Positions 2,462 through 62,359 of a stretch of 64,000 bases of DNA are shown here, in pieces. The notes under the pieces were generated by a model, which was not told the origin of the DNA, searched no databases, and saw only the letters and a list, made by a program, of their open reading frames with translations. Each line of letters begins with the position of its first letter. Positions within the stretch are counted from its first letter, which is position 1. The DNA comes from Octopus vulgaris (Eukaryota), in the NCBI GenBank assembly GCA_951406725.2, contig OX597815.1, forward strand, positions 66,712,001-66,776,000. Reading direction: 5' to 3'. The translations under genes and the position numbers were made by a program.

Positions 2462-3000
2462 AGACACAAGACCCAAAATTTGGGTGGAGGGAGCCAGTCG
2501 ATTAGCTCGACTCCAGTACGCAACTGGTACTTAATTCGACCCCCGAAAGGATGAAAGGCAAAGTCGATCTCGGTGGAATTTGAACTCAGAACATAAAGAC
2601 AGACGAAATACCTATTTCTATTTCTTTACTACCCACAAGGGGCTAAACACAGAGACGACAAACAAGGACAGACAAACGGATTAATTCGATTACATCGACC
2701 CCAGTGTTAACTGGTACTTATTTAATCGACCCTGAAAGAATGAAAGGCAAAGTCGACCTCGGCGGAATATAGAGCCGGAAGAAATACCTATTTCTTTACT
2801 ACCCACAAGGGGCTAAACACAGAGAGGACAAACAAGGACAGACAAACGGATTAAGTCGATTACATCGACCCCAGTGCGTAACTGGTATTTAATTTAATGA
2901 CCCCGAAAGGATGAAAGGCAAAGTCAACCTCGGCGGAATTTGAACTCATAACGCAGCGACGGACGAAATAACGCAAAGCATTTTGCCTGGCTCGCCGCCT
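2462..3000 (-). mobile_element. Stack of three tRNA-derived SINE copies/fragments (family A, head GGCGGCGAGCTGGCAGAA)
   Basis: The block gtcgattacatcgaccccagt...ccgaaaggatgaaaggcaaagtcgacctcggcggaatttgaactcagaac repeats three times. A B-box-like GAGTTCAAATTCC lies on the minus strand. Confidence 0.85.
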
Positions 3001-3680
3001 TTGATTAATATATATTATATATCTTTTTACTTCTTCAAGGGTTTCAGTCTCCACTAGTTTTTTTTCTTTTTTTTTTTTATCTGATATTTGTTTTGTTGGT
3101 CACTTTTGCTGAACAGGTTGTCATGTGGTGGCGCGTGTGAGGAGTAAGAAACTCAGACAAACACCCACACACACATGCGCGCGTGCACACTTGTACACAC
3201 ACGCACACACACACATACACACACACAAGCTGAGTAGGCCGTCGTTGCTGGACAATTTTCAAAATAGAATGTCTTTCATTTTCTGTTTACTCCATGTCAG
3301 GCCATATCTTCCCCGACCGATAAGCCTCTTGATCAGGACGGATTTCTGCATTATTTTGAGACTCGTTAACTATAAAACAATTAATTAACAATTAAAACGA
3401 TAAAACTAAACTATAAAAGATGTAATGAGAGGATATGAAATTAGAGAGGAAGGCTGGTTGTCTAAGCAACCTTGAGAACAGATGTTGTTCTGGGGAAATG
3501 AAAATGATCATTTTCATCAACCTTGCAGTTTCATGGGAAGAAAGGTGCACTCAAGCCTTTCAACAGAAGAAGGCCGAACCATCAGGTCCTTTTTCGGGTT
3601 TGCGGGGATAAAAGTGGTGGATGTGCCTATTCCCAGTTGCTGTTGGCGACATCGAGGTTAAGGCTAAATTCACCAAACGT

Positions 3681-4484: not shown

Positions 4485-4646
4485 GGTCGTGTTATTCTTT
4501 GCTCCGCAGTGAAAGATTGTTTTTGTGCAGAAAATTGTGAAAATTTGCTGTTTTGTTCGTCGAGACCACTTCTTTTCTGCTGTTGCAGCAGAGTTTTGCT
4601 GTTGTTTCCCCCTTGAAACAAGGGGGAAGCGACGAAAAACATCAAT

Positions 4647-5678
4647 TTGCCACCAATTTCTTCCGAGTCCGAGGAAAACTTTGAAAATTTGTTTGAAGGC
4701 ATAAAGGTGAATATGTGGGAGGAGAAAGGTAAAGGCATAGAGGCGTCTCACGCGCTTGTTACAAAAGCAAACGACAAGATGTCTTGCGAGGCTAAACAAG
4801 AGGAAAAATCAAAAATAAATTTTGCGAGTGCAGCAACTTGCCCCTGTGAAAATATAGTCATTAACAAGGAAGATTTAAAGAAATATCAAGGACTAATAAA
4901 AAAAGAAGGTGATAATGTGAAGTTTCTCCCTCCCAGTGAATTAATTTACGCGCCGGAGAGAAAAACTGTGATATACAAAACATATCATGTAAAAAATTAA
5001 AAAATCGACTTCGTACCGAGGGAAGCGATAGAAAAATGCTTGAGGCTGATATGGCAACAAACAAGCTACATAACGAGAGGTAGTCGCTTCGGCACTGTAG
5101 AGGTACATTTCCCTAGCGAAGAAAAAGCTAAGAAACATTCAACAATGACATTGAAGTCGGAGGAAGTAGTTCTCCTGCCGACTTACTTAGGAAAGAGAAC
5201 TTCAAAAGTCACAGTCACGGATATACCACCCGAAATAGATGTGGCCTGGGTGATAGCCGCTATTCTCATAGGCAAAGAAGAAGAAATTTCAATTCTTCAG
5301 TCTAAGAGATACCAGCACATGAACTGGGTTGGACAAGATTTAGACCTTGTCATCCAAGCAAACCCCTCAGACTTAGAAAAAATGCCCAGTTCCCTTACAA
5401 TTGGAGAAAATACCAGCCTGATGGTGGTAGTCGAGGAGAGAAAGCCCAGATGTTACAAATGTGGCGAGAAAGGCCACATAAGGTCGAGCTGTAAGAAGAA
5501 GACAGCCAAAGAAAACGCAGCAGAAGAGGCAAGCACGACGCCGAAGACAACGACCACACCGCTAGAAATAGCAGCCACGTCGCGCACACCATTTGCCGAA
5601 GTACAGCCGACAGCGGGAGAAAACAACAACAACAACGACAACAACAACAACAAGGAGTGGGTCACCGTGGAACCTTAA
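4647..5678 (+). pseudogene. Tx1-like ORF1 (gag-like, RRM-like region plus CCHC zinc knuckle), frameshifted near 5000
   Basis: ORFs 4647-5000 and 5040-5678. Motifs CYKCGEKGHIRSSC (CX2CX4HX4C), RFGTVEVHF and SKVTVTDIPPEI; a W-x-x-V motif near the end. Confidence 0.75.
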
Positions 5679-5824: not shown

Positions 5825-6321
5825 TTTTAGCCTTTCAATTTTTTTTTATTAATTGTTAAATTAATTTAAGGATAACAATTAAGAAAAAAAACGAAAGACT
5901 AAAACGAAAGCAATGGAAAATAATCTTAATTTAACAATTAAGAAAAAAAAGACGAAAGGCTAAAACGAAAGCAAAAACTCAAAACAAAAGCAAAACCAAT
6001 AATTTTAGACACACGCGTAACAATTAAATTAATTTAACAATTAAGAAAAAAAAACGAAAGGCTAAAATTTAGGGTTAGGGTTAGGGTGAGGGTTAGGGTT
6101 AGTGACAGGATGTTGTCTGTTTTAGACGCAGCAATAGAGGCGATAGGATTGGTTAAAATTCGAAAAATTAAACTACGTTAAACTTACAAATTACAATTTT
6201 CTCAAGAAAGCCAAGAGAAAAAAATGTTTTATTTTGACACATTCTACCAGTATACGAAGTTTAAAAGTGTTTAGCTAACTAGAAATTGTGTTGAAAACTG
6301 CCGTTCAAAAGGAAAAGATCC
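5825..6321. mobile_element. Right half of GGATC-ended MITE carrying (TTAGGG)n
   Basis: Ends ...aactgccgttcaaaaggaaaagatcc, with a TTAGGG tract at 6069-6102. Nearly identical to 24297-24682. Confidence 0.75.
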
Positions 6322-6755
6322 CGAGATAAGCTCTTTAGACATGGGTGTGCACCTTCGTCGGTTTGTGCAAGATGTGAGAGGGACAGTTAAACTGTCCTGC
6401 ACGCGATTGTGCAATGCCCCAAGGTGACTGACTCTGGGCTTATGTTGAACAGTTGCTGTCGCATTCGAGAAGAGTACAACTGTCGAGCGAATCTGTAATT
6501 AAGATAGTTCCGCCGGCCTCCTTGAATAGGGAGGAGTGAGTCTGTTTTCTCTCGGTAGTTGCTGTTGCGAAAGAAGTAGTATGGAAGACGAGAGTGAAAG
6601 GAATTGCAACAGGCGTGTTTATCTCCAGTCTCGAGCTCATTGACTTTTTCGTTTTCCCCATGAAACGGAAAATAAGGCTGGAGAAGAAATGCCTGTCGCA
6701 AAGTGTGTTTCGTAAAAGATGGAAGTCTATAGCAAGTATGTTGCGAGTGAAAGAA
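6322..6755 (+). pseudogene. Tx1-like ORF2 C-terminal zinc-binding (zf-RVT) region
   Basis: Manual translation RDKLFRHGCAPSSVCARCERDS*TVLHAIVQCPKV...AKEVVWKTR...FRKRW, with stops and frameshifts. Confidence 0.7.
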
Positions 6756-14706: not shown

Positions 14707-15023
14707 TCTTTTTATCGAGCTCGAAAGGAGAAAGGGCGAAGATAACTTAGGCAGAATTTGAACTCAGAACGTAGCAGCAGACGAAATACCTATTTCTTTA
14801 CCACCCACAAGAGGCTAAACACAGAGGGAGCAAACAAGGACAGACAAACGGATTAAGTCGATTACATCGACCCCAGTGCGTAACTGGTACTTAATTTATC
14901 GACCCCGAAAGGATGAAAAGCAAAGTCGACCTCGGCGGAATTTGAACTCAGAACGTAACGGCATACGAAATACGGCTACGCATTTCACTCGGCGTGCTAA
15001 CGTTTCTACCAGCTCGCCGCCTT
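14707..15023 (-). mobile_element. SINE family A (two stacked copies)
   Basis: Same sequence as 2785-3000 and 25655-25888; CpGs retained. Confidence 0.85.
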
Positions 15024-16564
15024 CAAAGCAACAGATAATGCAGCTATTATTATCGAATATTTGCATACGATGAACACATGTTTGTGACTATGAGATCTTG
15101 TTAAGGTATCATTGAAAGCCAAGTAGTATCTTAAATATATCGGTATTTATTTATTATCAGTGAAGATGACATGCAATCCAAAATGAATCATGTTATGCTA
15201 TCATCTATCTTTTAATTCATGTTTGGAGCAGATGGTTGCGCCAATCGAGCAGCACAAGATAGTTATTTTGGGATATCGTAATTTATGTAACGGCCATTAA
15301 CCTTTGCTTCCCTATCAATGATCAGTAAATTGTATATAAGTAAACGGTTAGGTCAAGGTTAAGAAATCTATTCTCAGTGGTTAACGACCGTAGTGTGATG
15401 AAGTATTAATAAACGTTGATACGTTGATACCTATAAGTCAACAATTTATATGAAGAGAGATGTTAAAAAGTATTGAGCCCACAGAAATGTAATTGACCGA
15501 TTTGATAGGGCAGAAGTCAATTAACCTAAGAAACATTGTGCTGTGTACATTGTGAAGACTGTTTTCTTATGACAAGCACAGTCCATTCGTGAGTAAATAG
15601 AAACTCCAACGTGGTTTACATCCTTCTGCATTGTTTTACTCTTTTACTTCCTGTAGTCATGGGACTGCAGCCATACTGAAGCAGACATAACCTATGTGAG
15701 GTGTTTTCGTTATTTCAATTCTCTGAACGCTGTAAACTCACAGAAAGTTTGTTTACAATGCAGTTTCGATTTTTGCTTCAAGTCTTTTCAACCAATCCAA
15801 TCATCGTATCTTTCTTTGATTAACACACACTTCTGATTTGTGGTGTCTTCTTTACAATCCCTTGGAATGTGGTTCAAATCAAGCGGAACGCTTAGGCTTT
15901 GTTCACATAATCATATTTTATTATAGATAAACCGTTTTAAGGCGGCGAGTTGGCAGAATTTCTTCTGGCTCTTTACGTTCTGAGTTTACTCTCCACGAAG
16001 GTCATCTTTACCTTTCATCTCACCGGGATCGATAAAATAAAGTGCCTATCAATGGTTTGTGTATGTGTGTATATGTAATTGTATGTGTGCGACCATGTGC
16101 ATGTGCGCCTTTCGGCGAATGATGTTTCGTGTTTAATACAAGCAAGCAAGGTCTTTTTTGTAGTGAGAAGGGAAGTGAATGATGTAATATAGAGTTAAAA
16201 CAAGAGTTAATTTCGTTAATGAAAACCATTTAATTGCTCTAAAAATGTCAGTTAGATCATAGCAGATGTTGAACCCACAAGATGTTCAACAGTTGTACAT
16301 GGAAAAACTACACAGTTAATACATGCAAAAAGAACTCGCTAGCTAAAACAATCAGGAAATTGCCGGCTAAAAGGCGACCTACAATAGTGTAAAGATACTT
16401 ATGTGGCTTGTCTACAAGGTGTGTCTCTTTTCTACTAAAAAAGAGGTTGGAGAATGAACAACCTCAGTAAAGTTTACAGAAATTTCCTACCTTGAATGTG
16501 GTGATATTAAAAACTGATTTTAAAAGAAGTGCTAGATGATTCGCGATTTTGCAATACAACCTTT

Positions 16565-17700: not shown

Positions 17701-20245
17701 TTATGGCTGCCCCCTCGTTAACGAGTAATGGCCATTGCACGAAGCTTAACTGTTACTGGTGCTGTGATCGAATGTGACTTTTTAGCCCAGCTAAAGATCT
17801 ACAATGTATCGTACAGAATTGGCAACTAAAACCTTTACCGGAAATAGCCGGCTGTAGCTGTAACTGGGTTTCATGTACCTTTGCATGTCGTTTAAGTCCT
17901 CCTGCCAAATTACACTCTCTTCCACATGCCCGACAGATATGATTAGTAGTATGGTGTGTTACACCACCACCAGTGGCCAGGTTGTCATCTGTCTCGCTTT
18001 ATGACTACGAAGATGACTCTTGCGTCTAGCTTTACTGAGGCAGGGTCTTGCACAGACACTGCATGTCAGCATCTTAGGAAGACCCTTCCCATCTGGAAGT
18101 GTAACAGCGATGCCCTTCCTGACATCCCTCCTTACTTTCTCATGTGCAACTCGAGATTTCTCAAAAGTGGCTGTCCCCTCGTTCACAATCCTTCTCCACC
18201 TGCTACGATCAATAGCTATGCCTTCCCATGTGTCAGGAGAGATGCAAGCATCTCTTAATGAAGCCTTCAGCAAGTCCTTATACCTCTTTTTTGGTTTATG
18301 TGGAGGTCGTTCTCCTTTAGCTAACTCTCCATAAAAGAGTTGTTTTGGCATCCTTGAATCCTTCATCCTGACCAGATGACCACTCCATCTGAGCCTTTGC
18401 TTTAACACAAGAGCTTCTATACTTTCATACCGAGAGCCTTCCAATATTTCAAGATCACTGATGCGGTCCTTCCACTTAATGCCATAGATCCGTCTGAGAC
18501 ACATCTGATGGAAACGTTCCAGTTGTTTAAGGTGGTATCGATATGTGACCCACGTCTCGCAGGCATAGAGAAGAGAAGGGATCACACATGCCTTGTACAC
18601 CTCTGTCTTTGTCTTTCTGCATATGTCTCGTCGACTCCAGAGGCGCTTTTCTATCCTTCCGAAAGCAACACTTGCTTTCCTAATTCTATATGGAATTTCA
18701 TCATCCAAATTGCTATATCTATTAATAGTACTTCCCAGGTAGACAAACTGATCAACTACATCAAGTCGTTTAGCATACACATCGATATTTGGTACACTAT
18801 ACTGCTTACCAGGGGCTGGTTGATGCATGACAACAGTTTTCTTGAGATTGACCGTCAATCCTAAGGCAGTGCAAGCATCAGAGAATGCATTCAAAATGTG
18901 TTGCATATCAATCTCTGTGTGTGCTGCTAGCTCACAATCATCTGCATACAAAAGGTCTCTTATAATAGAGGTAAATAACTTTGTTTTTGCAGCAAAGTGC
19001 CTGATATTAAATATGCTGCCAGAGGTTCGATAATGGATATAAACACCGTATCTGCAGTTTTTGAATGCAATACAGAACACCATCGCAAAATATATGGAAA
19101 ATAGGGTCGGTGCCAGAATATCCCCCTGTTTCACTCCATTTTGTATTGAAATGGGCTCCGACATTTTCCCTCTAACATTCACCCTACCATTCATGTTTTC
19201 ATGAAAAGACCTAAGCAAAGCAAGGAACTTTTCAGGACACCCAATTTTCTGGAGGACTTTCCACAATGCTTTTCTATTGACGGTATCAAAGGCTTTTGTC
19301 AGATCGACAAAAACCTGATACAAATCCAGACCCTGTTCCACACACTTCTCCTGAAGCTGTCTAGCTGAAAAGATCATATCAGCAGTGCCACATCCCACAC
19401 GAAAGTCAGATTGACTTTCTGGAAGAACACAAACTGCAACGTACTTCAGCAGACGATCCAGAAGTACCCTGCATAAAACCTTTCCTACGACAGACAGTAA
19501 TGATACTCCCCTATAATTACCACAATCATTCCTGTTGTCCTTTCCCTTATACAGGACCACTATTACTGTATCTCTCCAGTCCTCAGGTACAGATTCACTA
19601 GTCTATATCTTACCAAACAAAGAGTGAAGTTTCTGCAGAAGTTTCTCACCACATGCTGTAACTACTCCGCATGTATGCCATCCATACCCGGAGATTTCCC
19701 ATTATTCAACTTTGAGACAGCCATCGCAACTTCTTCCAACTTTGGTGGTTCTGCGATTTCTGCCTTCACAGGTAATCCAGGGATGAGATTGAGAACATCC
19801 TCACTGACTACAGACTGCTGATTCAAAAGTTCATCAAAGTGTTCTTGCCACCTTCGCAGAATTCCTTGTGAAACACGAAGAAGTTCTTTACTATGCCTGC
19901 TCCGAAGTGGTGTCATCAGGGAAGACGTCGGTCCATAAACTCTTCGCAAGAGACCATACAACAGCTTTGTGTTATTGGAATCTGATGCCGCCTGTATCTC
20001 ATCAGCCTTCTTACTCCACCACGTATCCCTCATCTGAGAGAGCCTTTGTCTCACACGTGATTTTACGTCCTTGAGTTCCCTATGCAACACTTCCCTTTCC
20101 TGTAGCTTTGCTGACAAATAGCGTGACAAAGTACGTCTTTTATCAGCCAATAAATCATCTATATGTTCATCATTTTCTTTAAACCAATCTTGATGCTTTC
20201 TTTGTATCAATCCCAGAACTTTCTTGCCTATATCATAAACTGACT
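17701..20245 (-). mobile_element. 5'-truncated RTE-clade LINE
   Basis: RT ORFs plus a short 3'UTR ending in a (TA)/(CA) microsatellite. The endonuclease domain is missing. Confidence 0.92.
17753..20210 (-). pseudogene. RTE reverse transcriptase ORF (two frameshifts) with three C-terminal C2H2 zinc fingers
   Basis: Motifs NYRGVSLLS, FVDLTKAFDTV, GVKQGDILAPTLF, LLYADD, YLGS, LRWSGHLVRM. Fingers CSVC..HLRSH, CRAC..HAKVH and CQFC..HIRSQH; the last two come from manual translation of 17753-17950. Confidence 0.9.
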
Positions 20246-20765
20246 TGTGATCAATAATGCATCATCCATGACCACCACATCTCATTTGTCACTATAGGTC
20301 AAGGATACCATCATCCAAACGGTATTTTATTTTAGATAGTAATTTGAAGGAGATATTGCTGCTAATTTTAGGTCAAGCAAAGCAGCGAGTTGGCGGAACC
20401 GTAAGCACGCCAGACAAAATGCTTTGCCGCATTTCTTCTGACAATACATTCTGAGTTCAAATTCCGCGGAGATTGAAAATAAGTACCAGTTGAGTGTTTG
20501 CTCCTCCCGCTCGTCGAAAGTTCAAATTTTGTGCCTGTAGTAGAAAGAAAAAAATCTTTAGTAGAACCATCGACGGCGTCGCAGTCTCAACCGTTTTTTA
20601 GCTATGGACCCCTTTGATTGCTATTCTATTCTGATGGTCCAACAGTCATTCGGTGATTAAAAACTAGTTTCATAGATACTTTTTTCAAAATTCCTATTTT
20701 GTTCATCACACATTCTCATGTGTAGTTTCAACTATGTAAAAGGTTAGAAAAAGAAATTGAGCTGT

Positions 20766-21365
20766 GTATATTTCGTTTGTCACTGTTATTTATAACATAT
20801 TTCATCTAAGTTACGGTTGTATGAATAAATGAGTGTATCTGAAGCATGTTTACTTCATGGCACCACCATAATCGTTTGTGCTTCATTTTAAATTTTTTTC
20901 CGTAACTCTAACCCTAAAACGCCAACCCTAACCGTAACTCTAACCCTAATCCTAAAATCCTAACCCTAACTCTAAAACCCTAACCCTAGCTCTGACCCTA
21001 AAACCCTAGCCCTAACCCTAAAACCCTAACCGTAAAACCGTAAAACCCTAAAGCTAGAACCAGTACAAACGCACGAACAATGTCATAAATAACAGTGACA
21101 AATGAAATATACACCGCCGATAGTTGTTGTTGACAAACAACGGCAGTAATTTTATTCAGCTGTAATTTTATATACGTCATTGATTGGTTGAAATTACCGA
21201 AATGCGAAAATTTTAACAAGAAATAACTTCCAAACTACAGAATTTTCTCAACAACGCCAAGAGTAAAATATGTTTTATGTGACACTTTCTACCAGTATAC
21301 GAAGTTTGAAAGTGTTTAGTCACAAAAAATTATTTTTTAATCTGTAGGTCAAAAGGTAAAGATCC
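20766..21365. mobile_element. GGATC MITE (left TIR deleted) with degenerate CCCTAA array
   Basis: Ends aaggtaaagatcc, with CCCTAA/ACCGTAA variants at ~20904-21052. The core is the reverse complement of the 30698-31598 core. Confidence 0.8.
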
Positions 21366-21375
21366 GAGCTGTTTC

Positions 21376-22336
21376 GGATCTTTTCGCTTTGACCGGCAGA
21401 TTTTAAAAATAATTTCTTTGTAACTAAACATTCTGTAGTTTGTAAGCTATTTATTTGCTGTTTAATTTCTTGCATTTCGGCAATTTCAACCAATCAATGA
21501 CAACTATTGAGGTGAATACAGTCTCTCCGGATCTTTGCCAACAACAATTATTTGCGGTGTCATATGAATTTGTCACTGTTATTTATGACATATTTCATAT
21601 CAGTTACGTTCGTATGAATAAAAGATTATCGTTATTAAACTTTTATTAATAAACACATATTCTGAGTTCACAACATATGCAGTTTTAATTTCCCTCTCTG
21701 TTGCACAGATACTCACATTACATATATATTCGTTTAAGAAACAGATTGGGTTTATTTACATTTCTGAAGAAAAAAAAGATACCTTCCCCCCACCCCTAAC
21801 CCTAACCCTAACCCTAACCCTAACCCTAACCCTAACCCAACCCTAACCCTAACTCTAACCCTAACCCTAACCCTAACTCTAACCTTAACTCTAACCATAA
21901 CCATAACCCTAACCCAACCCTAACCCTAACCCAGATTGAAATGCAATAGATCGATATTAGGGTCATAATTATTGGTGGACACTAAAGAGGGAACGGTTTT
22001 GTTATCCAGCTCTGTTTACGAGTGACCCCTCAGTTTATGGTCACAGGGTATCTTTTTTCTTATAAATAACAGTGACAAATTCATATGACACCGCAAATAA
22101 TTGTTGTTGACAAAGATCCAGAGAGATTGTATTCACCTCAATAGACGTCATTGATTGGTTGAAATTGCCGAAATGCAAGAAATTAAACAACAAATAGCTT
22201 ACAAACTACAGAATTTTCTCAAGAAAGCCAAGAGAAAAATATTTTTTATAAACACATTCTACCAGTATACGAAGTTTAAAAGTGTTTAGTTACAAAGAAA
22301 TTATTTTAAAATCTGCCGGTCAAAGCGAAAAGATCC
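21376..22336. mobile_element. Complete GGATC MITE with long TIRs, 8-bp TSD and internal (CCCTAA)n
   Basis: TIR ggatcttttcgctttgaccggcagattttaaaa (arms over 200 bp). TSD gctgtttc at 21368-21375 and 22337-22344. Telomere tract at 21794-21932. Confidence 0.9.
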
Positions 22337-24296: not shown

Positions 24297-24682
24297 TCTC
24301 AAAACAAAAACTCGAAACAAAAACAAAACGAATAATTTTAGACACACGCGTAACAATTAAATTAATTTAACAATTAAGAAAAAAAAACGAAAGGCTAAAA
24401 TTTAAGGTTAGGGTTAGGGTTAGTGTTAGGGTTAGGGTTAGGGTTAGTGACAGGATGTTGTCTCAGTTTTAAACGCAGCAAATGATTTTAGCTCAATAGA
24501 GGCCATTGATTGGTTAAAATTCGAAAAATTAAACTACGTTAAACTTACAAATTACAATTTTCTCAAGAAAGCCAAGTGAAAAAAATGTTTTATTTTGACA
24601 CATTCTACAAGTATACGAAGTTTAAAAGAGTTTAGTTAAGTAGAAATTGTGTTGAAAACTGCCGTTCAAAAGGAAAAGATCC
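24297..24682. mobile_element. Right half of GGATC MITE with (TTAGGG)n
   Basis: TTAGGG tract at ~24402-24447; ends ggaaaagatcc. Confidence 0.8.
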
Positions 24683-25176: not shown

Positions 25177-25654
25177 ATCTCCTTTGCTAATATGCACTGT
25201 CACCAAAACAGACTGAACGTCCAGCCAGCTGCGCCAAATCCTCAGTGTCCAAAGAGTGGCACCCAGTCATTTCATTCCGCCTTTCGCCTATTGGATTCCA
25301 ATTATCACCTTGGTCTTATGAACCCTGATTTAGTCACCTCGGATTTCCGAAAACTGATAGTCCCTTCGGGTGTTTACATACCCCAATACAAAAATGTTTA
25401 TAGTGTTACAATTATGTAAAATATTGTCATACTGCTGAAAAAATAGCATAACAGGCAATCTCCGTTACAATATACATTAAATCAAAACTGAGATGAAAAT
25501 TATAATAAATTTGTTGCATAAATAATTGTAAATTGTAGATGAAACACACCAGTACTATAATAGAAAAAAAGTTTTATTCATCAAAATAGCCACAATGTAT
25601 TTCCATGAATTGAAATGGAAAGAAAAATCAATGTGAATTCATTATATAGATATT

Positions 25655-25888
25655 ACCTATTTCTTTACTACCCACAAGGGGTTAAACATAGAGTGGACAA
25701 ACAAGGACAGACACACGGATTAAGTCGATTATATCGACCCCAGTGCGTAACTGGTACTTATTTAATCGACCCCGAAAGGAGGAAAGGCAAAATCGACCTC
25801 GGCGGAATTTGAACTCAGACCGTAGCGGCAGACGAAATACCGCTAAGCATTTCGCCCGGCGTGCTAACGATTCTGCCAGCTCGCCGCC
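25655..25888 (-). mobile_element. SINE family A, near-consensus copy
   Basis: Full head GGCGGCGAGCTGGCAGAATCGTTAGC on the minus strand, CpGs intact. Confidence 0.85.
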
Positions 25889-25914
25889 TTCACTCATTAT
25901 ATAGATATTACCGT

Positions 25915-27544: not shown

Positions 27545-28661
27545 TAATATATATATATATATATAACTCAACTTGTGTGTCTGTGTGTGTATCTATGTGT
27601 GTGTCTGTGTGTTTAACTTCCCGGCACATCTCCTCCTAGCCAACAAATCGTAGAACCACCAAAAATGGGTCACTGAAAGTTTAGGCGAATGAAAATTGAA
27701 CTGCACTATTTCTTTTCCGAAATTCATCTCGCAAGTGCAAAGATCGATAATGTGTTTGTTTAGGCCTTATCCCATGCATTGAATAGTGAACTTTACTCAG
27801 TCAGCTGTTTGACGTGAACTGTGTTCACCACGCGTGCAAGCATGCGTAAATTGTATGAGAAATAAAAAATCAAGATATAAAAACAAATCGCTGTAAACAT
27901 TGTAGAAATTCGGCAAAGAAATGAATTTTCGGGATGTCGCCTGGAGGGTTTTTTCGTATTAATCGTTTGGACTTTGTGAACACATACCAATTTTCTGCAT
28001 AACATTTTTAACGCTTTGAATTAAATGTGACCATTTTGCGTTGAGTCTGCAGTTTGAATCACTTTAACCAAATTTTAGCTGGCCGGATTTTTGATCATCA
28101 CGATACATCGCCAGCGACTCCCTGAAATTCTCCCCTGAGATCCCCGTTGAGAAATCTATATATATAAAACTCAACTTGTGTGTCTGTGTGTGTATCTGTG
28201 TGTGTGTCTGTGTGTTTAACTTTTGGATCTACCAAGTTTCATTATTAAAGATGGAAAGTAGTGTGTAGCAAATCTATATATATAAAGCTGAAGTTGTCTG
28301 TGTGTAGCAGGTTTGGTAGCCTTCAACTAACACTATCTCCTTCGAGATCCTGCAGCGCAAGTTGACCAAAATTGAGAGTATGATAGAAGAAGGCTTGCTC
28401 TTCATTCTGTAGAAGATAAAATTCAAATCGGACCATGTTAACACCAAAAATTATTTACATAAAAAAAGTGCTTTTTTTCTATGAAAATCCCTATTTTTTT
28501 ACGATTTTTGACTGCTGTGTCACCATTTTTCGGTGTATTTCAACTGGAAAAATGTTTACTTGAAGAGAATAACAAGTTGCATAATGCAAAATTTTTACTT
28601 TTCAAAAATTCCAATTCTAAAGGATCGAAACAAACCCAAGCAACATTGGGTGATACAGCTA

Positions 28662-28662
<1 letters not shown>
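27545..28662 (+). mobile_element. Tandem Helitron 5' ends followed by one complete Helitron (28273-28662)
   Basis: A-TCTATATATATAAA starts at 28155 and 28273. The ~27555-27620 block is duplicated at ~28160-28222. 3' end gcaacattgggtgatacagCTAG-T. Confidence 0.7.
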
Positions 28663-28727
<65 letters not shown>

Positions 28728-29080
28728 ATAAAACGGTAAGATAACAAAAGAAAGAAAGAGACCTCAATATTATGTAAATAGAGGAAATTTATCTATACAA
28801 TATGTTACATTACTCGGTAGTCAAGATAAAACTCTGAGTTTCAGATGCCGAAGTGGAAATCCACAACACCATCTCTTCGGTTATCTGGCTATTTGAAAAC
28901 GTTATGAAAAAATACCGTTAAAAATGAAGGGAAATTACTCTGTTATAACTCTGCTTTGCCTGCGTACTTATACATCGCTCGCATTTTTCGTCATAAAAAT
29001 TATATAAAAATACATAAAAATATATAAAAATATATAAAAATATATAAAATCTTCTTGGGACATAACACAGAAAGCATGTT

Positions 29081-29699
29081 CTATCCGTTTTCTTTAGGGG
29101 ACCAAAAACGTAACAGAAATTTAGTCACATGTGGGCATGATCCGAAAAGCTCTGTCCTTGTATTTAGACATGTGGTAGGGTCTAAGCTGCTTTTCCAGAT
29201 AAGCCATCTCTCCATGTCGCATAAACCGCACCTTCCGCTGCCGTTAGTGTAGGGCTTACATCTGGCCAAAATCTTCCATTGTATGTTATAATCGACACCT
29301 TTATCTCTTAAAGACCAAATATGATTGGATAATTGTGTCGCTTTTCTTTTGTTCCAGTGCCTAAAGCTCAAAGTGTGGTTATTGAACCTGGCCTTGAAAT
29401 TACCCTCTGTCAGGCCCACGTATTTCTTCGTCGAAACGGTGTCTTTAGTGGTTATAGAGTTTACGGTAGCTTCATATATGATGGTCTTGGACATGCAAGC
29501 TCCATTTAGCGGGCACAATTCTTTATTCCTGCATGAACAGCTGTTTTCTTCTTGTGTTTTTTGTATGTTATGATTGATTATGTTTTTAAAATTGGTAGTT
29601 GAACTAAAACTAATTTTTAAATTGTGTCTATTGAAGAGTTTCCTATAAGCATGGTTAACTGGAAAATGTCTATCTATCAGTGCTAGGAAATATTTACCT
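29081..29699 (-). pseudogene. Mirror copy of the PLE linker + GIY-YIG endonuclease
   Basis: Identical 145-aa ORF at 29081-29518; the frame stays open to the palindrome centre. Confidence 0.85.
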
Positions 29700-29701
29700 T
29701 C

Positions 29702-30325
29702 AATATAGGTAAATATTTCCTAGCACTGATAGATAGACATTTTCCAGTTAACCATGCTTATAGGAAACTCTTCAATAGACACAATTTAAAAATTAGTTTT
29801 AGTTCAACTACCAATTTTAAAAACATAATCAATCATAACATACAAAAAACACAAGAAGAAAACAGCTGTTCATGCAGGAATAAAGAATTGTGCCCGCTAA
29901 ATGGAGCTTGCATGTCCAAGACCATCATATATGAAGCTACCGTAAACTCTATAACCACTAAAGACACCGTTTCGACGAAGAAATACGTGGGCCTGACAGA
30001 GGGTAATTTCAAGGCCAGGTTCAATAACCACACTTTGAGCTTTAGGCACTGGAACAAAAGAAAAGCGACACAATTATCCAATCATATTTGGTCTTTAAGA
30101 GATAAAGGTGTCGATTATAACATACAATGGAAGATTTTGGCCAGATGTAAGCCCTACACTAACGGCAGCGGAAGGTGCGGTTTATGCGACATGGAGAGAT
30201 GGCTTATCTGGAAAAGCAGCTTAGACCCTACCACATGTCTAAATACAAGGACAGAGCTTTTCGGATCATGCCCACATGTGACTAAATTTCTGTTACGTTT
30301 TTGGTCCCCTAAAGAAAACGGATAG
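29702..30325 (+). pseudogene. PLE linker + GIY-YIG endonuclease (Naiad-like), 5'-truncated but uninterrupted
   Basis: Open frame NIGKYFLALIDRHFP...CSCRNKELCPLNGAC..IIYEATV..KYVGLTEGNFKARFNNH..CGLCDME..LNTRTE..CPH. No RT core and no start codon. Confidence 0.85.
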
Positions 30326-30519
30326 AACATGCTTTCTGTGTTATGTCCCAAGAAGATTTTATATATTTTTATATATTTTTATATATTTTTATGTATTTTT
30401 ATATAATTTTTATGACGAAAAATGCGAGCGATGTATAAGTACGCAGGCAAAGCAGAGTTATAACAGAGTAATTTCCCTTCATTTTTAACGGTATTTTTTC
30501 ATAACGTTTTCAAATAGCC

Positions 30520-30582
30520 AGATAACCGAAGAGATGGTGTTGTGGATTTCCACTTCGGCATCTGAAACTCAGAGTTTTATCT
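30520..30582 (+). ncRNA. Minimal type I hammerhead ribozyme variant (mirror copy 28824-28886 on minus)
   Basis: Stem I agataa/ttatct; core CCGAAGA (U4C); stem II gatg..gtgga/tccac..catc plus an extra U; GAAA; palindromic stem III actc-a-gagt; UH = UU. Confidence 0.6.
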
Positions 30583-30611
30583 TGACTACCGAGTAATGTA
30601 ACATATTGTAT

Positions 30612-30657
<46 letters not shown>

Positions 30658-30697
30658 AAAGACAGTACCAATTTCAGCAATAATTATTTAGTGGTAG

Positions 30698-31598
30698 GGA
30701 TCTTTACCTTTTGACCTACAGATTTTAAAAAATAATTTTCTGTAACTAAACACTTTCAAACTTCGTATACTTGTAGAATGTGTCATATAAAAACATCTTT
30801 TACTCTTGCCGTTATTGAGAAAATTCTGCATTTTGGAAGTTATTTATATTTCGTTTGTCACTGTTATTTAGACATCGTTCGTGCGTTTGTAGTGGTCTTA
30901 GCTTTAAGGTTTTAAGGTTATGGTTTTACGGTTTTATGGTTAGGGTTAGGGCTAGGGTTTTAGGGTTAGAGTTACGGTTAGGGTTTTAGAGTTAGAGCTA
31001 GGGTTAAGGTTTTAGGGTTAGGGTTAAGGTTTGGGGGTTATGGTTGGGGTTTTAGGGTTAGAGTCACGGAACAAATGAAAAATGAAGCACGAACGATTAT
31101 GGTGGTGCCATGAAGTAAACATGCTTCAGATACACTCGTTTATTCATACAAACGTAAATGAAATGAAATATGTCATAAATAACAGTGACAAACGAAATAT
31201 ACACCGCCAGAAGTTGTTGACAAACAACAGCAGTAATTTTATTCAGCTAAATACACGTCATTGATTGGTTGAAATTACCGAAATACGGCAACTTTAACAA
31301 AAAATAACTTCCAAAATACAGAATTTTCTCAACATGTTTTATGCGACACATTCTACCAGTATACGAAGTTTGAAAGTGTTTAGTTACAAAAAAATATTTT
31401 TTAAATCTAATTCTTTTACTACCCACAAGGGGCTAAACACAGAGAAGACAAACAAGGACTGACAGACGGATTAAGTCGATTATATCGAACCCAATGCGTA
31501 ACTGGTACTTAATTTATCGACCCCGAAAGGATGATAGACAAAGTCGACCTCGGCGGAATTTGAAGTCAGAAAATCTGTCAATCAGAAGGTAAAGATCC
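30698..31598. mobile_element. GGATC MITE with degenerate TTAGGG array; SINE fragment inserted in right TIR
   Basis: ggatctttacctt ... aaggtaaagatcc. TTAGGG variants at ~30901-31066. The SINE at ~31410-31570 is flanked by an aaatct duplication. Confidence 0.85.
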
Positions 31599-32097
31599 AG
31601 TTAGTATTGGCGAGGCTAGCATTTGTCAGATAACCACTGTCGTATAATAATACTAAAAGAGACCGGCATGTGTAAATGTGTGTACGTGTGTGAATTAGTA
31701 GTAGCATGGCGGTGAAAATGATGACGGATAGCATTGTTGGAACAAAATATATCTATATAAGAAATGAGTGAACAGGTTTAAGGGATAATTAATATATTGG
31801 TCATCCATATTAACATCTATATTGTGTTAGTCAATCCTAATTCAGTTGCGTACGTACGTATATTCGCAGGCGGCTACATCACATGCCAATAAATTTATTA
31901 GCTGGCTGTGTCGTATGTTAGAGGAAATGTCAACGAGTGTCATTGGCTAACTAGGGAGGGGAAGCTTAACTAATTCGTCAAATCATGAAATAAAATCAAG
32001 GTTAAAATATTCGATTCAAGTTTTCTAGTTTTATTTTCCAGTTGTTATTCAGTTTTAATGTTCTCTTTTCCTATTTATTTTAGTTATTTTATTTATA

Positions 32098-50894: not shown

Positions 50895-51104
50895 ATTTCA
50901 AATTTTGGCACAAGGCCAGCAATTTTGGGTTAGAGGATAAGTTGATTACATCAACTCCAGGGCTCAATTGGTGCTTATTTTATTGATCCTAAAAGGATCA
51001 AAGGAAAAGTCATCCTTGGCAGAATGTGAACTCAGAACGTGAAGACATGAAATACTGCTAAGCATTTTGCCTTGAGTGCTAACATTTCTGCCAGCTCACT
51101 GCCT
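50895..51104 (-). mobile_element. SINE family A, CpG-decayed
   Basis: Matches family A with CG>TG/CA changes. Similar copies at ~52505, 55257, 56871, 58390, 59799 and 62120. Confidence 0.8.
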
Positions 51105-55496: not shown

Positions 55497-56810
55497 CTTC
55501 ATAACACAGTGTAGGTAAAAATGCAATGAAGTCTTTAGTCATCTGTCAAGTCACAACAAAGACATCAGACATAATACTTTCCTTAAGCTGTGCACTGTGC
55601 CCAATAAAGCTGCTTTTTGCAAGACATCAATCTTGCATGGGATTTCCAGTTGCCTTAAGAAGTCTTGATGTTTCAATGAGATTGAGCCCAATGCTCTGAT
55701 CACCACTAGTATCACTTTCAGGTTGGATTTCAATACTATCTTCACCCTTTTTTGATACACCTCGCTGACCTTGACTTTCATTTCTCGGTGTAAAATATCA
55801 TCCAGCTCCAAAATCCCTAAATATCTATACTCACTACTGTTGGGTTCACCCATGGTCTATCCTGATGGTAACCGCAATCCTTGCAGGCTACTTTCTTGCC
55901 TCTTTTCATATTAAGTGCTGAGCATTTGGTAATCCCAAATTCCATACTGATGTTCCTACCACACTTCTGGACTGAGTCACCTTGGAAAATTCCCCTTTTA
56001 ATATTAACTTTTCCAAGAAATGCATTACTTGAGTACAATTTGGGTTTCCACTCTTTCATGCTATGCATCAGAAAATTTGTGATGTTGTCAGCAACACCAA
56101 ACATCTGCAAGCATTCAATGATCCTAGAATGAGGCATCATATCATACACCTTTTTGAAGTCAATCCAAGCCATAGACATATTTGTATGATGTTTTTTTAC
56201 AATGCCTCAAAATTGTTTTACTGATGACCAGGTGATCCTTGGTACCCTGAGAACTATTCCTACATTCTCTTTGCTCCCTTGATTGTATTTCTTCCTGTCC
56301 CAGGAAAGTGTATGTCTTTGCCACAAATATTCCGGTGAGTATCTTCCAGATTATGTTCAGGCATGCTTTGGGACAGTAGTTTCCCACAATATTCCCTTTT
56401 CTTCTATCTTTCATTACAAGTATTGTCCTCCCAGTCACCATCCCCGCGGGGACTTATCTTTCTGGATACACTCATTCAATTGGGCTGCTAGTCTTTCATG
56501 CACTGCGTGGCATCTCTTCAGCCAGATTCCTTCACATCACCTGTGCTTATGACAATATTCCTTTGTTTCTTTCCTCTTTGTAATTTTGTCTTGATAGTTC
56601 CTATCCACATTGCATCCCTTTTATGCACCACATTGTTTCCCCATAATCCACTCCAGAACTCCTTGGCTTGATTTGCATCAGGTGCAACATTTTCCCCATT
56701 GTGTCCTTCTAACATTCGGAAGAATTGCTTCAGGCTATTTTTGAACAATCTGTTCTCAGACTGCTTATTTCTGTTCATAAATCTTCTGATCTTCTGGCTT
56801 TTTGCCATGG
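55496..56810 (-). mobile_element. R4/Dong-type element with internal deletions, between ATT tracts
   Basis: GRTILVMK..NYCPKACLN, MAWIDFKKVYD, GIFQGDS, YRYLGILE, then a jump to the RLE tail ALGSI..LQKAALLGT. Confidence 0.85.
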
Positions 56811-59139: not shown

Positions 59140-59775
59140 TTCAAATACACTCAACAAATTAGTCTGTTGGAAAAGAAAAAATCCTAACATCAGACTACAA
59201 GTAACCTTAGATGCCAAGAACCTTCCTAAGTATCTTAGCTGTCTTTAATAATGCTGTTTTCTGGTGCTGTACTAAACTGGGTTTTATGCCTATTTCCTCT
59301 ATCCATCTGTTCATACCTTTGGGGATAGTTCCCAATGCTGCTATAACCACTGGGATGCATTTTACCTGCACTTTCCACAGTCTCTGTAATTCAATAGCTA
59401 GTTCCTGGTACTTTGCTATTTTTTCTATACTTCTCTTATTAATGTTTTCATGATTTGGGACTGCAAAGTCTATTATCTGGCACTTTCTATTCTCTTTACC
59501 TACGACTACTACCAAATCAGGCCTAGCTACTATTACTCTGTCAGTCTGAATGTTGAAGTCCCACAACATCTTATATTTCTTACTTTCTAGTACTTTACTA
59601 GGTTCATGTTCATACCATTTGTCAGTATGTTCAAATCCTAGCTTTCTACATAGCTCCCTATGGATTACTCTCCCTAGATTGTCATGTCTTTTCTTGTATT
59701 CTACATTCACTTACTATGAATAATTCACTTACTATGTGAGTAATGCTTTCCTCTCTTGACTTGCATAATCTACAT
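59140..59775 (-). mobile_element. R4/Dong-type 3' fragment with nearly intact RLE ORF (59207-59710) and (AAT)n tail
   Basis: KKRHDNLGRVIH..LWDFNIQTDR..RPDLVV..IIDFAVP..EKIAKYQEL..ALGTIPK (PD-D/E-K nuclease). Confidence 0.9.
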
Positions 59776-60274: not shown

Positions 60275-61620
60275 TATTCAATATTTGGTAGATTGAAGCA
60301 AATTTCTACGTCACCACCTGCTACACCTCCATGTTGCTGGGATGTGTGCAGCATTGTGTTCTTTTCTGCTGTTGGGAGTGTGCAAACTCTTCCTGGTACT
60401 GTATTGTGTTAGTTTTTTTCCTTGAGGTGTGGTGCTGTCTTTTGTTGTGTTACTCCTTGTATTGTGTGTTGAGTGTGTAATGTTTTGGTTTTCTAACTTG
60501 CTGGTGGTGGTTTATTTCACTGGATAAATATTTTATAGAGTGTGTCTTGTATTTGTGGGTTGTTTTGTTTAGGTTGTATTATTGGATTGATAGTGTCTTG
60601 CATAGGATGTGGGCTGTTCCTAGCAGGGCTATTTTTTGGATAATGTGTAGTGTTGAGGATCCAGGTATAGCTTCTACATTTTTGTTTATATGATTTTTTA
60701 TCATGCCCAATGCTCCAATTATTATTGGTATTGTTTTTACCTTTATGCTCCACAGTTTGAATACTTCAATTTTGAGGTCTATGTATTTCAACAATTTCTC
60801 CACTTCTTTTTTGACAATATTTTGATCAAACTATCAGTTAGCAGATGTTTTTCCCCCCAATCCTTGACTATTGTGTCTGGGCGATTAGCTTTTATCTCTT
60901 TGTCGGTTTGAACCAGCATATCCCAGATGATTGTGGCCTGATCATTGTCTTGTACCTTGCTTGGCACATGCTTATACCACCTGCTGTCAGTTTTGATGTT
61001 GTAATGTTGACATATTGTGCAGTGGATATAACTGCTTACTTTGTAGTGTCTGTATACATATTCAGACATCCCGAGATGATGTAGTCAACTGTCTCATTGT
61101 GTTGGTTGCATATTCTGCATTTGGTGTTGAAGCCTGTTTTCATTATTTTGTTTTTACACTTGTTTGTAGTCAGGCATTGGTCTTGTACAGCAAGAGTGAG
61201 TCCTTCCGTTTCGGCTTTAGTCCAGAGCTTTTGAGACATTGTTGGCTTTTACTTAGGCTCACTTCTTCTCTATCATGCCTTGCAGAGTATTGGTCAAGAA
61301 GTGATTTTTCTCTCCATTTCTTCTTCAGTATCTTTTGTAATTGAGTTTTCATGTTATTTTCTGTCTCTCTGACCATTTCTGTTGTTGTCATCTGAGGTCA
61401 GTGTGTCAGTGTAGATTGCTTCTGCTTTGTATTTTGTCACCTACTTATGTATAGAGAAAAGCGTTTTCTTTTTCCCATGTTGCTTTACAACACGCTGTAA
61501 TCTTCCACTCTTTGTTTCTAAGTACTTTGCTCGTCAAACTTTTGTTATTTTATAGTAGTTTTCTATCTGTATTAGGCCACGACCTCCTTCTGAGTGGGAT
61601 AGATATATTCAGTCAGTTGC
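60275..61620 (-). mobile_element. R4/Dong-type 3' fragment (zinc knuckle + RLE + long 3'UTR)
   Basis: CRICNQHNETVDYIISGC, IIWDMLVQTD..NRPDTIV, IPIIIGALG. Confidence 0.85.
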
Positions 61621-61957: not shown

Positions 61958-62106
<149 letters not shown>

Positions 62107-62359
62107 TAATAATAATAATCCTTTCTCCTAAAGGCACAAGGCCTGAAAATTTGTGGGAGGGGACTAGTTGATTACATTGACCCCAATTCATAACTGGTAC
62201 TTATTTCATCAACTCTAAAAGTATGAAAAGCAATGTCAACGTCAGTGGATTTTGAACTCAGAATGTGAAGACAGATGAAATACCGCTAATCATTTCGCCT
62301 GGTGTGCAAACAATTCTGCCAGTTTGTTGCCTTTAATAATAATAATAATAATAATAATG

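What the first reader, a model, noticed from the sequence alone, without database searches (positions are those of the whole stretch)
28726..30653. Apparently perfect 1.8-kb palindrome of a Penelope-like GIY-YIG element inserted in (TA)n
Seen: 910-bp arms (28790-29699 / 29707-30616) around the spacer tcaatat. There is no net indel, and I found no mismatch in the segments compared. Both copies are 5'-truncated at the centre with 3' ends pointing outward, and the left copy has ~64 extra 3' bases. Known: PLEs often have inverted, truncated terminal repeats, and a CxC-x5-C-x5-C linker before the GIY-YIG domain fits the Naiad group. Inferred: a very recent fold-back integration by an active family. 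Any read-through transcript would form ~900 bp of dsRNA (ADAR/siRNA substrate), and the DNA could extrude a cruciform.
Basis: partly seen in the sequence, partly recalled or inferred. Interest (0 to 1): 0.8.

Follow-up and report, generated by a model that had tools for sequence, protein, structure and literature searches.

The report
Mirror-image Hydra-clade Penelope retrotransposon insertion
This is a perfect 1.8-kb mirror-image insertion of a Hydra-clade Penelope-like jumping gene in a TA repeat, likely made when one cDNA folded back on itself while a second cDNA supplied the extra end, an unusually symmetric case of a structure already described for these elements.

Summary
The palindrome is in the sequence exactly as described: 910-bp arms (28790-29699 / 29707-30616) with no mismatch, a 7-nt spacer, 64 extra bases on the left, and (TA)n on both sides. 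It is the 3' end of a Penelope-like element (PLE), but of the Hydra clade, not Naiad: the GIY-YIG nuclease is C-terminal, with a CxCx5C linker and no CCHH motif. The two outer ends match the clade's two natural 3' ends (with and without the PLE 'tail'). Contigs of the same many-copy family show that the spacer is ordinary element sequence between a 3-bp inverted repeat (CCT/AGG) and belongs to the tailless arm. A single fold-back cDNA therefore cannot explain the longer tailed arm. Most likely both target strands were primed, at the two start sites, and the tailless cDNA folded back. Head-to-head copies with one tail and palindromic junctions are already published for PLEs; only the near-total symmetry is unusual. 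No read spanning the locus was seen, so an assembly error is not excluded (about 10%). dsRNA and cruciform formation are untested.

The parts
28665..28725 (.). Left part of the (TA)n target, 61 bp
28726..28789 (-). 64-nt PLE 'tail', on the left copy only; holds the CCTC..GAGG hairpin that corresponds to the GCTC..GAGC hairpin of relatives' tails
   Evidence: family contigs join (TA)n at about 28730 in all 4 runs laid
28790..29699 (-). Left arm: 5'-truncated copy of the element
28824..28886 (-). Hammerhead-like motif of the left arm (mirror of 30520-30582), with a degenerate core
29081..29698 (-). ORF remnant, left copy (end of RT-side region, CxCx5C linker, GIY-YIG nuclease, stop)
29697..29709 (+). 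Centre: CCT (29697-29699) + 7-nt spacer (29700-29706) + AGG (29707-29709). All 13 nt are templated element sequence in the sense of the right copy; CCT is a 3-bp microhomology shared with the left copy
   Evidence: table 7 (X10 loose end behind 29699, 2 contigs) and table 8 record 16
29707..30616 (+). Right arm: 5'-truncated, tailless copy (true start 29697)
29699..30325 (+). ORF remnant, right copy: 208 codons without stop or frameshift, then TAG at 30323-30325; GIY-YIG fold at about residues 71-182 of the model
30357..30413 (+). AT-rich 10-bp tandem repeat in the 3' UTR (mirror 28993-29049)
30520..30582 (+). Type I hammerhead-like motif: 6-bp stem I, core CCGAAGA, stem II, GAAA, CTC-A-GAG stem III, GUU site
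   Evidence: no Rfam hammerhead hit
30614..30654 (.). Right part of the (TA)n target, 41 bp; its first 3 bases (ATA) are shared with the arm end

Best explanation
This is a head-to-head pair of identical 5'-truncated copies of a Hydra-clade Penelope-like retrotransposon in a (TA)n repeat, likely made in one very recent insertion in which both target strands would have primed reverse transcription and the tailless cDNA likely folded back on itself. Inferred steps: (1) the RT-nuclease nicks both strands of (TA)n; (2) the bottom-strand nick primes at the proximal, tailless start site and copies about 920 nt; (3) RT stops, the cDNA 3' end AGG pairs with CCT across a 7-nt loop, and synthesis continues back along the cDNA, making the mirror arm; (4) the top-strand nick primes at the distal start site 64 nt further 3' and makes a tailed cDNA; (5) this anneals to the fold-back strand, gives it the tail as template, and is extended through the hairpin by strand displacement. 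Shown: the geometry, the clade, the two end types, the templated spacer, its strand and the microhomology. Inferred: all of steps 1-5. The product has no RT and is a dead copy.
For: Perfect arms. A contig of the family with 0 differences over 29529-29699 continues past the centre with the reverse complement of the spacer, then AGG, then new sequence (X10, 2 contigs). By my hand translation that reads P-Y-S-P-E-V-A-F-N-I-G-K in the sense frame and matches relatives' PPxSxxVxTNIGK. So the spacer is templated, belongs to the right (tailless) copy, and the fold-back was on the antisense strand. The ends fit the clade: counted from the hammerhead site, the right arm meets TA at 38 nt (4 relatives' motifs: 32-43 nt) and the left arm at 105 nt after a tail hairpin (7 relatives' motifs: 92-115 nt) (52 motifs in 45 of 79 loci, 18 with hairpin only, 23 unclassified). 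Family contigs join (TA)n at about 28730 in 4 of 4 runs, and at 28790 in 2 contigs of X10. Both arms carry G at 29249, where about 87-92% of summed contig depth in X1-X3 has A, as expected for one template. In vitro, a PLE protein nicks and extends both strands, starts RT at two sites that delimit the tail, and is predicted to be a dimer (PMC11167929). Palindromes at head-to-head junctions were read as self-priming on an antisense template (PMC3846280). L031 shows a tailless long copy with an inverted tailed short copy, each ending in TA.
Against: No read or contig was seen to bridge the centre or both flanks. None of the 32 pieces shown (23,914 not shown) bridges the centre, and no genome is held. 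The 3-bp microhomology is weak alone: about 6% by chance, and 132 of 890 positions of the arm could form such a stem. L003 has the opposite polarity (short inverted copy tailless, long copy tailed). L003 and L031 arms are only 90-92% alike, so they may be old or separate events. In vitro, RT start sites did not differ between the two strands, so nothing yet ties a site to a strand. 0 of 79 related loci show a long symmetric fold-back, though short contigs would tend to break there.
Confidence: 0.5

Rival explanations
1. Two converging cDNAs, no fold-back: both target strands prime on the same broken RNA (tailless and tailed start sites), both RTs run to about the same 5' end, and the two cDNA ends anneal through CCT/AGG and fill in. 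This resembles L1 twin priming, but gives an inverted duplication.
For: Explains the one-sided tail, the spacer strand, the 3-bp microhomology and the shared minority allele without any flip. Asymmetric head-to-head pairs in relatives (L003, L031) need such a two-cDNA route anyway.
Against: Needs both cDNAs to end within 10 nt of each other. For independent truncations over 1-2.5 kb that is roughly 1-2% (my rough arithmetic), unless the RNA itself ended there. The sequence alone cannot separate this from the best explanation.
Confidence: 0.2
2. Single fold-back: a tailed cDNA primed on the left folds back, copies itself up to the TA-like site 64 nt short of its start, and joins the right (TA)n there. 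The 7-nt loop was flipped later, by recombination or template switching between the arms, or was mis-phased in assembly.
For: Needs one priming event. The right end shares ATA with the target. Reads shorter than one arm cannot phase the spacer, and loop inversions between inverted repeats are known (recalled, no call).
Against: The spacer as assembled has the strand of the tailless copy, so an extra event is required. The tailless end matches a recurring end class of the clade, which fits an RT start site better than a chance exit.
Confidence: 0.12
3. Assembly or library artefact: a fold-back chimera, or a mis-join of two loci through the repeat.
For: No bridging read was seen. The family has thousands of similar contigs per run. 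Tandem/inverted PLE structures are known to trouble assemblies (PMC8557442). Perfect identity is also what a fold-back chimera gives.
Against: The flanks are not mirrored. The mirror stops exactly at two different, natural element ends, each in (TA)n. The arms keep a minority allele instead of being pulled to the family majority.
Confidence: 0.1
4. A non-cDNA fold-back: self-priming of an antisense RNA (as proposed for rotifer Penelopes), or a later replication fold-back at CCT/AGG in an older single copy.
For: The loop strand is antisense, which fits the antisense-template proposal (PMC3846280). Short inverted repeats seed palindromes in replication (recalled).
Against: A replication fold-back from the tailless copy has no source for the tail, and from the tailed copy gives the wrong loop strand. 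An antisense transcript would need to start at the tailless end, for which I have no evidence.
Confidence: 0.08

Closest known systems
Hydra clade of EN+ Penelope-like elements (Craig et al. 2021, PMC8557442), closest named family Hydra-1_Obim of Octopus bimaculoides
   Same: C-terminal GIY-YIG nuclease, CxCx5C linker, no CCHH, CxxC and CxH around the conserved E and N, (TA)n target, 3' hammerhead-type motif. It shares Hydra-1_Obim's ISFS, ER and GSCPH-type residues and a 3' end a few tens of bases past the hammerhead (supplement; compared by eye).
   Different: A different family: about half of the nuclease residues differ from Hydra-1_Obim by my hand count (not a tool alignment). The hammerhead core is degenerate (CCGAAGA, GUU). 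This copy is a symmetric palindrome with no RT.
PLE inverted pLTR / inverted 5'-truncated copy with a one-sided tail (PMC8557442 Fig. 2 legend; PMC3846280; PMC11167929)
   Same: Head-to-head inverted truncated copy directly at the 5' end, a tail at one end only, a palindrome at the junction, an AT-rich target.
   Different: The examples I read have a short inverted copy (about 180-220 bp) next to a much longer direct copy, and tails of 30-40 bp. Here the two truncation points are 10 nt apart, the arms are 910 bp and the tail is 64 bp (about 60-75 nt seems usual for Hydra relatives).
Naiad clade
   Same: GIY-YIG PLE, (TA)n preference, tandem/inverted insertions, present in octopuses.
   Different: Naiads have the nuclease before the RT, with CCHH and CX2-5CxxC motifs. 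None of this holds here.
L1 twin priming (recalled, no paper read)
   Same: Both target strands would prime cDNA, and the products join by microhomology.
   Different: Twin priming gives a 5' inversion without duplication. Here both primers would start near the 3' end and the whole copy is duplicated.

Membership tests
EN+ Penelope-like element | GIY-YIG endonuclease domain | tested here: met
   AlphaFold model, mean pLDDT 88. Best structural matches: I-TevI catalytic domain Z 9.3, rmsd 2.4, 90 aligned; T4 EndoII Z 7.8; UvrC GIY-YIG Z 6.1. The Pfam hit is weak, E 0.011, below cutoff; Foldseek best E 0.095.
EN+ Penelope-like element | RT in the same ORF | tested here: inconclusive
   The RT part is truncated away in this copy. 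In relatives, YxDD lies upstream of the matching region in 26 of 28 loci with at least 160 aa upstream, and downstream in 0 of 79.
EN+ Penelope-like element | 5' truncation, inverted adjacent copy, tail at one end | tested here: met
Hydra clade | C-terminal nuclease | tested here: met
   A stop follows the nuclease, then a 3' UTR; relatives carry the RT upstream.
Hydra clade | CxCX5C linker | tested here: met
   CxCx5Cx5C in the query and in 62 of 79 relatives' frames
Hydra clade | CCHH motif absent from the GIY-YIG core | tested here: met
   0 Cys between the GIY- and YIG-equivalent motifs
Hydra clade | [quoted passage not shown] | tested here: met
   Both present in the query; C157, C160, E163, N179, C188, H190 invariant in 38 aligned sequences
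Hydra clade | Insertion into (TA)n | tested here: met
Hydra clade | N-terminal RWK and DKT motifs | tested here: inconclusive
   Region absent from this copy. 15 of 15 near-full-length relatives have RW[KR]; 14 have DKT and 1 DKS.
Hydra clade | Canonical hammerhead ribozyme | tested here: inconclusive
   A hammerhead-shaped motif sits at the expected place, but with core CCGA and site GUU, whereas 51 of 52 relatives' motifs have CUGA and 47 of 52 have GUA. No Rfam hammerhead hit. Activity not tested.
Hydra clade | RT phylogenetic placement with named Hydra families | not tested
   The RT of this family was not recovered; named families were compared by eye only.
Naiad clade | N-terminal nuclease followed by CxC domain and RT | tested here: not met
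   The ORF stops right after the nuclease; RT is downstream in 0 of 79 relatives.
Naiad clade | CCHH motif and CX2-5CxxC linker | tested here: not met
   No Cys in the core; the linker is CxCx5C (definitions).

The most novel reading that the evidence does not exclude
This locus is a fossil of the unsolved PLE integration step: one insertion uses both RT start sites, one on each target strand, and a cDNA snap-back at a 3-bp stem joins them. This single mechanism would explain the inverted pLTRs and the one-sided tail of all Penelope-like elements. It predicts that in symmetric copies the central loop always belongs to the tailless arm, and that a young, abundant family seeds the genome with kilobase perfect palindromes.
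Probability: 0.3. Interest if true: 0.6.

Novelty: new member of a known kind. Interest (0 to 1): 0.3.

Why it matters
How Penelope-like elements make inverted copies and a one-sided tail is stated as open in PMC8557442 and PMC11167929. A very young, unmutated, symmetric copy keeps the strand of the fold-back loop and both end types, so it separates models and gives a rule that can be counted in one long-read genome. If such copies are frequent they would also supply long perfect hairpins (possible dsRNA or fragile sites; untested). As a single locus it is a dead fragment of a known class, and no host function is indicated.

Tried and rejected
Naiad assignment: rejected (domain order and motifs). 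Whole-genome search for the master and for other palindromes: no genome is held. Rfam on 28600-30800: 29 matches up to E 10, none at a family's gathering score, mostly miRNA models fitting the hairpin by shape; no hammerhead family. Expression: no RNA holder is on record among the 24 runs listed; X10 is only a guessed RNA run, so nothing is concluded on transcription. Junction support: not seen among the 32 pieces listed; a contig through the centre would align without a joint, so the tables could not show it. Five opposite-strand joints are listed for the family in X1-X3; one (29619/29745) is probably due to the end of the stretch laid, and their direction is not given, so I do not count them as further palindromes. 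Host gene: the 140 longest of 161 non-low-complexity open frames of 65 aa or more gave only retroelement-type domains (RVT_1, zf-CCHC, zf-RVT, a zinc finger at the end of a LINE) and low-complexity hits; a large intron is not excluded. Symmetric palindromes in relatives: 0 of 79 metagenome loci; 17 had some inverted self-match of 30 bp or more, and 2 (L003, L031) were head-to-head 3'-end copies. My first end-classification script missed one stem III type, including the window's own motif, and was rerun. PDB sequence search with the alignment: 0 hits. Earlier findings of this scan: three answered look-ups, all empty. Literature searches for a fold-back or twin-priming model of PLE inversion (listings only) returned no such paper. 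The library lacks most subscription papers, including the early Penelope structure papers, so this is not proof of absence.

Full report
Observation. A base-by-base comparison gives 0 mismatches and no indel between 28790-29699 and the reverse complement of 29707-30616, with TCAATAT between them. It is by far the longest inverted repeat in the window. TA runs of 61 and 41 bp flank it, and the left copy has 64 more bases before its TA run. The flanks do not mirror each other, and no other copy of the element lies in the window. No genome is held for this window. The host is probably an octopus; this rests on a recalled repeat motif and on likeness to an octopus family in a paper's supplement, and no call established it.

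What the arms encode. Each arm holds the last 205-208 codons of an ORF, without stop or frameshift, followed by a 3' UTR. Pfam gives only a weak GIY-YIG hit (E 0.011). An AlphaFold model built on 38 sequences (mean pLDDT 88) matches the I-TevI catalytic domain at Z 9.3 (rmsd 2.4, 90 residues), then T4 EndoII and the UvrC GIY-YIG domain. Foldseek had no match under E 0.001; its best was EndoII. Longer homologues carry an RT upstream of this region. All 15 near-full-length ones have RW[KR], and 14 have DKT.

Clade. Craig et al. 2021 (PMC8557442; I read the abstract, passages, sections 11 and 15, and supplement parts 1, 52, 53 and search hits) define Naiad by an N-terminal nuclease with CCHH and CX2-5CxxC motifs. 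They define Hydra by a C-terminal nuclease, a CxCX5C linker, no CCHH, CxxC and CxH around the conserved E and N, RWK/DKT, a hammerhead and (TA)n insertion. The window protein meets every Hydra feature that its fragment can show and fails the Naiad ones. The supplement lists Hydra-1_Obim from Octopus bimaculoides. By eye it shares distinctive residues with this protein but differs at about half of the nuclease positions, so this is another family. One supplementary page was an image and could not be read.

The two outer ends. A hammerhead-shaped motif lies in the 3' UTR (30520-30582 and its mirror), but its core reads CCGAAGA and its site GUU. In relatives, 51 of 52 motifs have CUGA and 47 have GUA. 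Rfam did not detect it, so it may be inactive. Counted from this site, the right arm meets TA after 38 nt, and the left arm passes a small hairpin and meets TA after 105 nt. Of 52 motifs in 45 of 79 relatives' loci, 4 meet TA at 32-43 nt without the hairpin, 7 at 92-115 nt after it, 18 show the hairpin only and 23 could not be classed. The 64 extra bases are thus the PLE 'tail'. Frangieh et al. 2024 (PMC11167929; parts 1-2 of 4 read) showed in vitro that a PLE protein nicks and extends both target strands and starts RT at two internal sites that delimit the tail. They predicted a dimer and saw no difference in start site between strands.

The family. 20 of 24 listed runs, from 9 studies, hold part of the stretch; 12 hold half of its words or more. 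Laying four runs' contigs on 28714-29745 placed 7,433, 11,455, 4,372 and 476 contigs, with at least 40 recurrent variant sites. This indicates a family of many copies; summed depth is not a copy number. In X10, four high-depth contigs covering 635 nt differ from this copy at 1 site, so the copy is very young. Contigs join (TA)n at about 28730 in all four runs, and at 28790 in 2 contigs of X10. At 29249 most summed depth has A (about 92%, 88% and 87% in X1, X2, X3), while both arms carry G, as expected if both came from one template. X10 is only guessed to be RNA; I draw no conclusion on expression.

The centre. Two X10 contigs run past 29699 with the reverse complement of the spacer, then AGG, then non-palindromic sequence. 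By hand this reads P-Y-S-P-E-V-A-F-N-I-G-K in the sense frame, in line with relatives. So no base at the centre is untemplated: the element itself has CCT-7 nt-AGG here, the right copy starts at 29697, and CCT is a 3-bp microhomology. The strand that could have folded back is the antisense strand of the right, tailless copy. That strand starts at the right TA run, so copying it can give at most the tailless length. Yet the mirror arm is 64 nt longer. A single snap-back does not suffice unless the loop was flipped later or mis-phased. The microhomology alone is weak evidence (about 6% by chance; 132 of 890 positions could form such a stem). What favours fold-back is that the two truncation points lie only 10 nt apart.

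Mechanism. My best reading (0.5) is dual priming with snap-back. The bottom strand primes at the tailless site, its cDNA folds back at CCT/AGG and copies itself. The top strand primes at the tailed site, supplies the tail and is extended through the hairpin. All of these steps are inferred. Rivals are two cDNAs meeting at the end of one broken RNA (0.2), a single fold-back with a later or apparent loop flip (0.12), an artefact (0.1), and antisense-RNA or replication fold-back (0.08). Against an artefact: the flanks are unmirrored, the two ends are different natural ends, and a minority allele is kept. For it: no bridging record was seen (32 pieces shown, 23,914 not). In relatives, 2 of 79 loci show asymmetric head-to-head copies with a tail on one end. 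L031 has the polarity seen here and L003 the opposite; their arms are 90-92% alike. None shows a long symmetric palindrome.

Comparison with what is known. Inverted 5'-truncated copies at the 5' end and a tail at one end are standard PLE anatomy (PMC8557442; PMC8969392, passages). Arkhipova et al. 2013 (PMC3846280; passages and Discussion) already note frequent head-to-head structures with palindromes at the junction and ascribe them to self-priming on an antisense template. An O. vulgaris annotation counts 336 recently active Penelope-like insertions in 31 families (PMC13282606, passages). A 2026 preprint on retrozymes (10.64898/2026.07.22.740005, passages) added nothing on this. Five searches (listings only) found no paper proposing dual priming with cDNA snap-back for PLEs, but the library lacks most subscription papers.

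Consequences. A transcript through the locus would form 910 bp of duplex, and the centre folds as a perfect stem with a 7-nt loop. No host exon was found among the 140 of 161 frames scanned, and nothing here tests transcription, editing, small RNAs or cruciform extrusion.

Verdict. A most likely real, very young, dead insertion of a Hydra-clade PLE family distinct from the named one I compared. Its structure is an extreme, symmetric form of a known pattern. Its value is as a clean clue to an open mechanism. New member of a known kind; interest 0.3.

Noticed in passing
window 28824-28886 and 30520-30582: The hammerhead-like motif of this seemingly young, abundant family has a degenerate core (CCGA, GUU site), unlike 51 of 52 motifs in relatives. 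No common variant at the core position is among the 40 sites shown (8 not shown).
   Followed up: partly
window 17959-20261 (-): Long LINE remnant with an RVT_1 domain (E 5e-30) and a C-terminal zinc finger; looks RTE-like (label recalled).
   Followed up: no
window 4617-5678 (+): Two consecutive open frames (127 and 225 aa), the second with a CCHC zinc knuckle; probably a retroelement ORF1/gag remnant.
   Followed up: no
window 28155-28663: The left flank looks like a non-autonomous Helitron-type repeat, ending in a short hairpin plus CTAGT right at the (TA)n; related starts at 27551 and 28270. The class label is recalled.
   Followed up: no
window 30698-31405; also 20761-22336, 6181-6322, 24542-24682: A repeat family with internal degenerate TTAGGG arrays and inverted ends, several copies in the window.
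   Followed up: no
window 2532-3023, 14710-15025, 25654-25892, 31405-31643, 50907-51058, 62097-62335: A dispersed repeat of about 240 bp, SINE-like, resembling from memory an octopus repeat.
   Followed up: no
window 55817-56206, 59207-59710, 61039-61248: Decayed non-LTR element pieces among (TAT)n/(TAA)n runs, one with a weak zf-RVT hit.
   Followed up: no
L031:111-1379; L003:2512-4860; L042: Related Hydra-type loci: L031 and L003 have asymmetric head-to-head copies with a tail on one end, in opposite polarity. L042 has two different families tail-to-tail around one TA run.
   Followed up: partly
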